Assembly: GCA_964016885.1 (NCBI GenBank)
Contig: OZ024756.1
Span: forward strand, 40,982,001 to 41,046,000
Origin: Eledone cirrhosa
Taxonomy: Eukaryota
Length of the DNA: 64,000 nt
Reading direction: 5' to 3'
A program made the translations under genes and the position numbers. Under the pieces are notes generated by a model. It saw only the letters and a program-made list of their open reading frames with translations, did no database searches and was not told the origin of the DNA. Every line of letters begins with the position of its first letter. Position 1 is the first letter of the stretch. This document shows positions 6,841-20,576 of this stretch, in pieces.

Positions 6841-7746
6841 CAGTCATGGGAAACCTGCTTTCTAAATGTCTCGCCTAAGTCACCTAAGTGAAATCTTTCT
6901 GAATGTCTCACCTAAGTCACCTAAGTGAAATCTTTCTAAATGTCTCGCCTAAGTCACCTAAGTGAAATCTTTCTGAATGTCTCACCTAAGTCACCTAAGT
7001 GAAATCTTTCTGAATGTCTCACCTAAGTCACCTAAGTGAAATCTTTCTAAATGTCTCGCCTAAGTCACCTAAGTGAAATCTTTCTGAATGTCTCGCCTAA
7101 GTCACCTAAGTGAAATCTTTCTGAATGTCTCGCCTAAGTCACCTAAGTGAAATCTTTCTAAATGTCTCGCCTAAGTCACCTAAGTGAAATCTTTCTAAAT
7201 GTCTTGCCTAAGTCACCTAAGTGAAATCTTTCTAAATGTCTTGCCTAAGTCACCTAAGTGAAATCTTTCTGAATGTCTCGCCTAAGTCACCTAAGTGAAA
7301 TCTTTCTGAATGTCTCGCCTAAGTCACCTAAGTGAAATCTTTCTAAATGTCTTGCCTAAGTCACCTAAGTGAAATCTTTCTGAATGTCTCGCCTAAGTCA
7401 CCTAAGTGAAATCTTTCTAAATGTCTTGCCTAAGTCACCTAAGTGAAATCTTTCTGAATGTCTCGCCTAAGTCACCTAAGTGAAATCTTTCTAAATGTCT
7501 TGCCTAAGTCACCTAAGTGAAATCTTTCTGATTTTTTTACCCCAACTTTTCAGTCATAATTTATCTTTCTATCATTTTTACGATTGAGGAAAATGTGTAT
7601 GAATTTTGTAGAAACAAATCAAAACAACCGGAGTTACCGCACTTTTTTTAAAATGTGGGCACAAATGTAAATTAGCGATTGTGGTCCGCCTGATGATGAG
7701 CCATATCTCATGTGGCCCAATTCTCAAAAAAGGTTGCCCATGCCTG
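6841..7746. mobile_element. Non-autonomous hAT-type DNA transposon (MITE) carrying a 37-bp tandem array
   Basis: TIRs CAGTCATGGGAAACCT / reverse complement CAGGCATGGGCAACCT (14/16); 8-bp TSD CTATAGAC (6833-6840) / CTACAGAC (7747-7754). It interrupts a SINE whose uninterrupted relatives lie at 24650-24785 and 56075-56220. Confidence 0.85.
6858..7529. repeat. 37-bp minisatellite, 18 copies
   Basis: Unit CTTTCT(A/G)AATGTCT(CG/CA/TG)CCTAAGTCACCTAAGTGAAAT; no spacers. Confidence 0.95.
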
Positions 7747-8205
7747 CTACAGACCTTTAGCATAATTTTCAAGGATCTTCAGCATAACACAGTGTGTGGT
7801 AAGAAAGACTGGTCCTTTGAATTACAGAAGCACTCCATTTGCCAGTCTTCAAAATATTTTCTGTCAGCCCAATTTCACTCACAAGTATTGAATCAATGGA
7901 AAGGTACTTTAACTAAGATGCTATGCTATCAGATCAAACTTAGAACCCTGGTTGTTAAGCTAAAACTTCTTAACTATACTACCATGCTGTGAATAACATA
8001 ACTATTATCTAAAATTAAGATCAAAAATTCTTCAGAATTTCCTCCCACTCTTCTAGAAATATCATGAGGGATTACTTTGAACTATAAAGTATACTTCTTC
8101 TTGCACTTAATTAAAGAATAAAACAAAGTTTGATTAAGTATTGATAGAAAATAATTGGATATAGAAAGAGAAAGTAATTCTTACAAAATGAACAGATTTC
8201 AGAAC

Positions 8206-20276: not shown

Positions 20277-20539
20277 TATATAAAGAGAGGGAGAGGTGGG
20301 TGAGCAATGTGGCAGCATGCTACTATATCCGTCTCTGGGTCAAAAACATAGCACACACTTTTTCCTCTCTGCTTGTTTCCTTAAAGTTTACCATCATTCC
20401 GTTGGTATACATCTATTGCGCGATTTACACCTGATGAGGTCACCGGGTCCTCACGCAACCTGGCAACTGAAATATGCATAGTGTTTACAGTAATAAAAAA
20501 TTAAGGAAATTCAACATATTTGGCCCCGTCATTTCACTT

Positions 20540-20540
<1 letters not shown>
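20277..20540 (+). mobile_element. TA-embedded short element with a hammerhead motif (Penelope-like pLTR/retrozyme remnant)
   Basis: About 260 bp, GC-richer and CpG-containing, lying between TA runs; contains a type I hammerhead core followed by AATAAA. Confidence 0.55.
20427..20484 (+). ncRNA. Minimal type I hammerhead ribozyme motif (CpG-decayed)
   Basis: ACAC-CTGATGA-GGTCACCGGGT[CCTCACGCA]ACCTGGCAACT-GAAA-TATGCATA-GTGT: core CUGAUGA/GAAA, 11-position stem II, palindromic stem III, AUA cleavage triplet, stem I ACAC/GTGT. Confidence 0.7.

Positions 20541-20576
<36 letters not shown>

What the first reader, a model, noticed from the sequence alone, without database searches (positions are those of the whole stretch)
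20427..20484. Minimal hammerhead ribozyme whose stem II defects are all CpG-type
Seen: intact CUGAUGA, GAAA and AUA core. Stem II has 7 Watson-Crick pairs, 2 G-U pairs and a CA/CA mismatch; restoring CG at each of these positions gives a perfect 11-bp stem (GGTCGCCGGGT/ACCCGGCGACC). Stem III is the palindrome TATGCATA and stem I is ACAC/GTGT. Known: short palindromic stem III hammerheads are characteristic of Penelope-like elements and can cleave as dimers. Predicted cleavage is after 20480.
Basis: partly seen in the sequence, partly recalled or inferred. Interest (0 to 1): 0.75.

Follow-up and report, generated by a model that had tools for sequence, protein, structure and literature searches.

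The report
Hammerhead end of 2-kb Penelope parasite
This self-cutting-RNA motif is a worn end piece of an abundant, protein-free 2-kb jumping element that likely borrows a Penelope-type enzyme, and its mismatches are mostly family features rather than decay of this copy.

Summary
The copy (20292-20543) is the end repeat of a ~2.1-kb non-coding element with at least four subfamilies. The loose motif has 356 exact matches genome-wide, control 0. Of the four proposed CpG 'repairs', two exist separately in sister subfamilies. The other two are almost absent (3 of 133 and 1 of 133 sampled copies). A C·C mismatch and a U·U/G·U base of stem II are kept in all subfamilies. TATGCATA is off-register and private; the family's in-register stem III palindrome varies by compensatory change, as expected for a dimer-cleaving ribozyme. 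Insertions look Penelope-made: (TA)n targets, partial tandems, and inverted arms using two fixed 3' ends ~148 nt apart (14 of 15). Short copies stop at the first base of a conserved 53-nt hairpin ~200 nt upstream of the cut, likely the RNA's 5' end. No ends pile up at the cut site (0 of 58). This copy is probably dead. Cleavage, expression and the partner enzyme are untested or unfound. The scan noted similar two-armed hammerhead families in this genome before.

The parts
20292..20543 (+). Solo end repeat (pseudo-LTR type) of a ~2.1-kb non-coding Penelope-type element, subfamily A; runs from the family's usual 5' stop to the short 3' end
   Evidence: only piece of the unit in the window
20292..20337 (+). 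5'-terminal hairpin (53 nt in the family; this copy lacks about the first 3-4 bases and is weakened)
   Evidence: majority folds of four subfamilies, z -5.0 to -8.1, paired through changes on both arms; window copy z -0.86
20427..20430 (+). Hammerhead stem I, 5' strand
   Evidence: paired in 38-40 of 42 A copies
20431..20437 (+). Catalytic core CUGAUGA
   Evidence: majority letter in all subfamilies
20438..20468 (+). Stem II with loop: G·U closing pair (U·U in other subfamilies), conserved C·C at 20441/20465 (private C>A here), distal 6-bp helix
20469..20472 (+). Core GAAA (G12-A15.1)
20472..20479 (+). Stem III octamer; self-complementary in the family, broken here by a private G>A at 20474
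20480..20481 (+). Predicted cleavage site (after A17 of AUA)
   Evidence: hammerhead numbering applied to the sequence; cleavage not tested
20481..20484 (+). Hammerhead stem I, 3' strand
20485..20543 (+). Tail up to the short 3' end (inferred first start site of reverse transcription, about +65); the second site (+215) is absent from this copy
20540..20576 (.). (TA)n microsatellite at the 3' junction (insertion target)
   Evidence: the same junction in most copies

Best explanation
The motif is the type I hammerhead in the end repeat of a ~2.1-kb non-coding repeat family that is likely copied in trans by a Penelope-like reverse transcriptase/endonuclease, and this copy is a solo, probably inactive end piece. 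Shown: unit length and lack of a reading frame, head-to-tail partial tandems, inverted arms, (TA)n junctions, two fixed 3' ends about 148 nt apart used one per arm, a 5' stop at the first base of a conserved hairpin, and conserved hammerhead pairing with a fixed C·C mismatch. Inferred: transcription starts at the hairpin's first base in an upstream end repeat. The enzyme cuts both strands of a (TA)n target and starts reverse transcription inside the RNA at +65 or +215 from the cut site. Starting in the first end repeat runs off after ~270 or ~420 nt and gives solo copies like this one; starting in the second gives long copies. The copied RNA is uncut at the hammerhead. The hammerhead would cleave only as a dimer, perhaps with protein help, to process tandem transcripts. 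This copy would cleave poorly or not at all.
For: Unit: pile-up of 26 long loci gives 2143 nt, longest stop-free frame 100 aa of low complexity. Tail-to-body junctions in L061, L100, L102 and L105. Sister family C has two hammerheads about 2.05 kb apart in L155. Ends: 3' ends cluster at about +65 and +215; in 14 of 15 two-armed insertions the arms use different sites (one arm read). 5' stop: about 26 of 28 copies that reach -177 end by -214 (58 copies from tail-only queries); in E only 3 of 45 go past the homologous base (counted by eye). Hairpin z -5.0 to -8.1 in four subfamily majorities. Hammerhead: stem III columns 96% paired with changes on both sides; covariation score above 500 of 500 shuffles and all slid controls. 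Literature: internal initiation at two sites, AT-rich targets, uncut RNA as the substrate and a protein-assisted hammerhead (PMC11167929, main text read); start site in the upstream pLTR (PMC6765202 and PMC8557442, passages). This copy: stem I pairing probability 0.02 against 0.15-0.96 in family majorities; off-register duplex -7.3 against -5.1 kcal/mol.
Against: No autonomous partner found: one endonuclease family checked (30 loci of 62,237 first-look candidates) shares no terminal sequence. The proximal 2-3 pairs of stem II have probability at most 0.08 in every subfamily fold, and the pair next to the core is not the conserved G-C. 0 of 58 copies begin at the cut site. A variant with a broken stem III still has four copies. 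The covariation controls do not correct for relatedness, the alignment was selected for an intact core, and two of the two-sided changes in stem II could arise from CpG decay alone. The transcription start has no RNA support and the cap-G test failed. Samples are best-scoring hits, not random draws.
Confidence: 0.72

Rival explanations
1. The element is as described, but its hammerhead no longer cleaves; the fold is kept as a binding or folding platform for the Penelope protein.
For: Non-canonical U·U/G·U next to the core, fixed C·C, marginal proximal stem II. No pile-up of ends at the cut site. Variant D copied with a broken stem III. Ribozyme mutants did not affect insertion in vitro (PMC11167929).
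Against: All core letters are the majority in all four subfamilies, although C lies about 24% from B around the motif. The dimer palindrome is kept through a non-CpG two-sided change. Two copies start exactly at the cut site (L061, L118), though this is within chance.
Confidence: 0.17
2. The unit is an eroded autonomous Penelope-like element whose reading frame is no longer recognisable, not a non-autonomous passenger.
For: Length of 2.1 kb is near short PLEs (Hydra under 3 kb, PMC8557442 passage). Pfam also misses true PLE fragments, so its blank is weak.
Against: The majority of 11-27 overlapping copies per position has no frame over 100 aa on either strand. The sense strand is T-rich. Local PLE protein pieces give no tblastn hit (best E 0.33). 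B and C bodies share only patchy 62-73% identity.
Confidence: 0.07
3. One reading: a once perfect 11-bp stem II was inactivated in this copy by CpG deamination at four sites.
For: Two of the four CG states exist in sister subfamilies. Real CpG decay is evident in the family (17% change at CpG sites against 5% elsewhere). Three E-type copies have a fully paired 9-bp stem.
Against: C, which CpG decay cannot produce, is at 20465 in 120 of 133 copies; T at 20468 in 131 of 133; 356 against 6 and 3 genome-wide. The two real CG states are not together in any subfamily majority.
Confidence: 0.04

Closest known systems
Minimal hammerheads in pLTRs of metazoan Penelope-like elements (Cervera and de la Pena 2014, PMC4209133; abstract, results and discussion read)
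   Same: Type I topology, short helix I (4 bp), long helix II, palindromic helix III fit for dimers, mostly solo truncated copies.
   Different: Pair next to the core is U·U or G·U rather than the conserved G10.1-C11.1 (or there is an extra base on both sides). Helix II spans 11-13 positions with a fixed C·C. The carrier has no reading frame.
Metazoan non-LTR retrozymes (PMC7229834, passages; bioRxiv 10.64898/2026.07.22.740005, parts 1-3 of 5)
   Same: Non-coding, one type I hammerhead per unit, head-to-tail arrangement, low GC, proposed dependence on PLEs.
   Different: Mostly solo end pieces and partial tandems, not arrays. Circular RNA not shown.
PAc (Poseidon, Anolis) insertion mechanism (Frangieh et al. 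2024, PMC11167929; main text read)
   Same: Two internal 3' start sites downstream of the hammerhead, AT-rich targets, both strands extended, hammerhead copied uncut.
   Different: Spacing of the sites is ~148 nt against a 30-40-bp tail. No ORF follows the hammerhead. A hairpin-defined 5' stop is not described there.
Non-autonomous Chlamys elements such as MRC1 (PMC8557442, passages)
   Same: Non-coding PLE passengers forming pLTRs and head-to-tail insertions.
   Different: Algal, mostly without canonical hammerheads, and similar to a known partner at the 3' end; no partner was found here.

Membership tests
Type I hammerhead ribozyme | Core CUGANGA, GAAA and UH in order around three helices | tested here: met
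   majority in A, B, C and E
Type I hammerhead ribozyme | Helices I and II supported by pairing across homologues | tested here: met
   86% and 72% of cells paired, slid controls 22-43%; relatedness not corrected; fixed mismatches in helix II
Type I hammerhead ribozyme | Score against Rfam hammerhead models | tested here: not met
   no hammerhead hit at gathering or at E up to 10
Type I hammerhead ribozyme | Self-cleavage | not testable with these tools
   needs an assay; genomic ends at the cut site not enriched (0 of 58)
PLE minimal hammerhead (PMC4209133) | Palindromic helix III in register with A15.1-U16.1 | tested here: met
   family: 96% of cells paired, two-sided changes; the window copy itself fails it (G>A at 20474)
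PLE minimal hammerhead (PMC4209133) | Conserved G10.1-C11.1 closing helix II directly before GAAA | tested here: not met
   base before GAAA is T in 131 of 133; C in 3 genome-wide matches against 356
PLE minimal hammerhead (PMC4209133) | Extra nucleotide between 9 and 10.1 | tested here: inconclusive
   20438 varies G/U by subfamily and can be read so, but then a second extra U lies before G12
Autonomous Penelope-like element | ORF with reverse transcriptase and GIY-YIG endonuclease | tested here: not met
Penelope-like insertion pattern | Partial tandems forming pLTRs, inverted 5'-truncated arms | tested here: met
Penelope-like insertion pattern | Optional tail between two fixed 3' ends; (TA)n targets | tested here: met
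   ends at about +65 and +215, different site per arm in 14 of 15
Penelope-like insertion pattern | Shared terminal sequence with an autonomous partner | tested here: inconclusive
   one endonuclease family, 30 loci, no similarity; other families not examined
Metazoan non-LTR retrozyme | Non-coding unit with one type I hammerhead | tested here: met
Metazoan non-LTR retrozyme | Short units (under 1 kb) in tandem arrays | tested here: not met
   unit ~2.1 kb; longest seen about 1.5 units (L102) and one ~1.06-kb deletion form (L105)
Metazoan non-LTR retrozyme | Linear and circular monomer RNAs in vivo | not testable with these tools
   no RNA data could be laid

The most novel reading that the evidence does not exclude
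The family is a ~2.1-kb animal retrozyme, more than twice the largest published unit. It carries an active hammerhead variant in which a U·U/G·U pair replaces G10.1-C11.1 and a fixed C·C mismatch in a long helix II is a tertiary or protein contact. Its end repeat is a portable ~270-nt module, bounded by a 53-nt 5' hairpin at the RNA start and an internal reverse-transcription start, that makes any upstream transcript mobile (variant D).
Probability: 0.3. Interest if true: 0.7.

Novelty: new variant of a known kind. Interest (0 to 1): 0.45.

Why it matters
This copy is an ordinary decayed repeat, and hammerheads in Penelope-type ends are known. The family is more useful. It offers four natural versions of a hammerhead that departs from the consensus at the base of helix II, directly testable in vitro. 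It shows in genomic ends what one in vitro study proposed: two internal start sites, one per target strand, on uncut RNA. It marks a candidate RNA start by a conserved hairpin. It also suggests that animal retrozyme-like elements reach 2 kb and are missed by searches capped at 1 kb. For the scan it is a caution: repairing one copy on paper gave two right and two wrong ancestral letters.

Tried and rejected
Rfam: nothing relevant. 5' ends made by ribozyme cleavage: two copies start at the cut site (L061; L118, 1 of 5 matches of a pattern built to find them) and contigs in three runs of one sample start at 20482, but 0 of 58 copies from tail-only queries do: not enriched. Cap-derived G at the 5' stop: 7 of 19 starts have G, but by eye 5 of the 7 are templated by the inverted arm: rejected. 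Expression: no RNA holder listed, no evidence either way; the contigs laid only confirm letters and repeat depth. Coding origin: Pfam on 21 stop-free frames of L100 and L155 gave nothing below E 0.016 (weak, as true PLE pieces were blank too); tblastn blank. Partner: one PLE endonuclease family without terminal similarity; PLE pieces beside L008, L155 and L158 are separated by microsatellite and taken as neighbours. A slipped stem II register is favoured by folding in A, B and C but leaves 3-4 bases before GAAA and is not kept by pairing in C: not adopted. Long-range pairing of loop II with the tail: the pairing letter is in only 8 of 82 motif matches (loci not deduplicated): dropped. A TATA-like box lies ~55 nt upstream of the 5' stop, too far for a usual promoter: not used. 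PMC5785218 (dimer cleavage of PLE hammerheads) was not held; only its title was seen in a reference list. The octopus repeat paper PMC13282606 has no 'hammerhead' or 'ribozyme' in its main text. Five paper searches listed no description of this family; Repbase, Dfam and supplements were not seen and may hold it.

Full report
1. Observation. The sequence at 20427-20484 is as described for the core, stem I and stem II. Positions below are also given relative to the predicted cut (20480 = -1, 20481 = +1). A 104-nt contig from public runs is identical over 20392-20495, so the letters are real. On its own the stretch is weak: no Rfam hammerhead hit and fold z -0.14. One point is wrong. In hammerhead numbering A15.1 is 20472 and U16.1 is 20479, so stem III is the octamer ATATGCAT. 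The palindrome TATGCATA is one base out of register and includes the cleavage-site A.

2. It is one copy of a repeat. The genome has 3.0 Gb; an octopus-like host is my inference from repeat content and earlier scan notes. A search with 20330-20520 gave 1067 first-look candidates, 40 scored. A loose hammerhead pattern has 356 exact matches, reversed control 0; with 30 fixed letters this suggests a few thousand copies (estimate). The window copy runs 20292-20543 and ends in (TA)n. It is the only piece of the family in the window.

3. The unit. Walking upstream shows that the tail of one unit joins the body of the next. A pile-up of 26 long loci gives a 2143-nt unit, 38% GC, T-rich on the hammerhead strand, with no stop-free frame above 100 aa. 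L100 and L105 have the end repeat at both ends and L102 holds about 1.5 units. Pfam on 21 natural frames and tblastn with local PLE pieces found nothing; the Pfam blank is weak, because true PLE pieces were also blank. Four subfamilies were sampled: A (window type, 42 copies), B (31), C (30) and E (30). C also has a ~2.05-kb unit with two hammerheads (L155). All samples are best-scoring hits and include their query copy; the C-type rows were dropped from the A/B count.

4. The CpG idea. Counts: G at 20442 in 0 of 73 A/B, 21 of 30 C, 1 of 30 E. C at 20461 in 0 of 73, 1 of 30, 27 of 30. G at 20465 in 3 of 133, where C stands in 120. C at 20468 in 1 of 133, where T stands in 131. Genome-wide, 6 matches have G at the third place and 3 have C at the fourth, against 356 (the three patterns differ slightly in free places). 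So two states are real in sister lineages and the changes are CpG-type, but they were fixed in source elements. The other two are not ancestral as far as this genome shows. CpG decay does occur in the family (56 of 333 CpG-site letters changed against 440 of 8092 others in A), at other places.

5. The family hammerhead. The core is the majority in all subfamilies. The pair next to the core is G·U in A and U·U in B, C and E, not the G10.1-C11.1 called highly conserved in PLE hammerheads (PMC4209133). C·C at -40/-16 is kept in 39 of 42, 29 of 31, 24 of 30 and 25 of 30 copies, even in E, where the other 11 positions pair in 25-30 of 30. Pairs -39/-17 (A·C, G-C, A-U) and -36/-20 (G·U, A-U, A·A, G-C) differ between subfamilies. 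Stem III is ATGTGCAT in A, B and E, ATGTACAT in a few older copies and ATATATAT in C, always self-complementary. On 58 of 109 gapless intact-core copies (aligned at 88) 80% of cells pair against 22-43% in slid controls, and stem III 96%. Limits: rows were chosen for an intact core, relatedness is not corrected, and stem III pairs are meant between two molecules. Against activity: the proximal pairs of stem II have probability at most 0.08 in all four majority folds.

6. This copy. It differs from the A majority at 20418, 20422, 20449, 20452, 20465 and 20474 around the motif. The G>A at 20474 puts two A·C mismatches into the in-register dimer and favours the off-register duplex (-7.3 against -5.1 kcal/mol), which would trap the cleavage-site base. 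Stem I probability falls to 0.02 (0.15-0.19 in A, 0.8-0.96 in B and C). It is solo; the nearest close relative listed is 105 kb away on the other strand. It is probably inactive (inference).

7. How copies are made. 3' ends fall at about +65 and +215 and join (TA)n. Where an inverted arm is present it uses the other site: 5 of 5 for short-ended main arms (one read) and 9 of 10 for long-ended ones; four more tiny arms agree by eye. This matches the tail and inverted pLTR of Penelope-like insertions (PMC8557442, passages) and the two internal start sites and two-strand extension shown in vitro for PAc (PMC11167929), with a longer spacing (~148 nt against 30-40). Earlier scan notes gave this lead for other families of this genome; I tested it here on this one.

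8. The 5' stop. Among 58 copies found with tail-only queries (two query copies dropped), about 26 of the 28 that reach -177 stop by -214 (seven rows taken because split them at an indel, one end read by eye, two are variant D). In C, 13 of 19 that reach -166 stop by -203. In E, 3 of 45 pass the homologous base (by eye; 20 loci were found with a 5' query). The stop is the first base of a 53-nt hairpin present in all four subfamily majorities (z -6.0, -5.0, -8.1, -5.7; 16, 4, 10 and 9 copies), with different letters on both arms. Consensus folding of the raw alignments was much weaker for A and C, as copies are decayed. A structure that blocks reverse transcriptase would be expected to stop copies at the 3' foot of the hairpin; a stop at the 5' foot fits the end of the RNA (reasoning). 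PLE transcripts start in the upstream pLTR (PMC6765202, PMC8557442, passages), so a start site is my best reading. Nuclease trimming to the hairpin is the alternative. A cap-G test failed. No ends pile up at the cut site (0 of 58), in line with uncut RNA being the template.

9. Variant D. Four loci on four contigs carry the same end repeat joined at about -204 to a different upstream sequence of ~1.5 kb without long frames. All four have a broken stem III and end at the short site; two share a deletion of the cut site and their downstream flank, so they may be one event. This suggests that a solo end piece like the window's can make upstream sequence mobile, and that a working ribozyme is not needed for each jump.

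10. Verdict. A real hammerhead motif in a decayed solo end repeat of a non-autonomous Penelope-type element (confidence 0.72). It works like a PLE pLTR hammerhead and like an animal retrozyme, but fails membership features of both: G10.1-C11.1, a reading frame, and short tandem units (published 170-400 nt and 51-972 bp). New variant of a known kind; interest 0.45. Not shown: cleavage, expression, circular RNA, the partner enzyme. Supplements, Repbase and Dfam were not seen.

Noticed in passing
window 34458-37010, - strand: 850-aa stop-free, Glu-rich frame, probably a large exon of a host gene; Pfam gives only CTD6 at E 0.051.
   Followed up: partly
L281-L284 (G000 C12:24.17 Mb, C4:83.32 Mb, C14:23.35 Mb, C28:46.74 Mb): Variant D: the same end repeat joined to a different ~1.5-kb upstream sequence, with a broken stem III; possible capture of host sequence.
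   Followed up: partly
L030, about 590 nt downstream of the long 3' end of the element (output): A different small hammerhead-like motif on the opposite strand, apparently of another Penelope-type family.
   Followed up: no
L048 oriented 2529 and L059 oriented 286: A third hammerhead-like family with CUGAAGA and a 5-bp stem II.
   Followed up: no
L063 oriented 7462-7931: A 103-bp stretch of the element's body is tandemly repeated about four times in one copy.
   Followed up: no
L232, L275, L280, about 55 nt upstream of the 5' stop: TATA-like box followed by a C run at a conserved distance; a similar motif stands in A/B. In E a CUGAYCA...GAAA stretch lies between it and the stop.
   Followed up: no
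L293-L322: Very abundant recent Penelope-like family with a C-terminal GIY-YIG domain (62,237 first-look candidates); no canonical hammerhead within 420 nt of the frame's end.
   Followed up: partly
window 6858-7529, 41659-42803, 42847-43709: Young minisatellites with 37-, 35- and 21-bp units.
   Followed up: no
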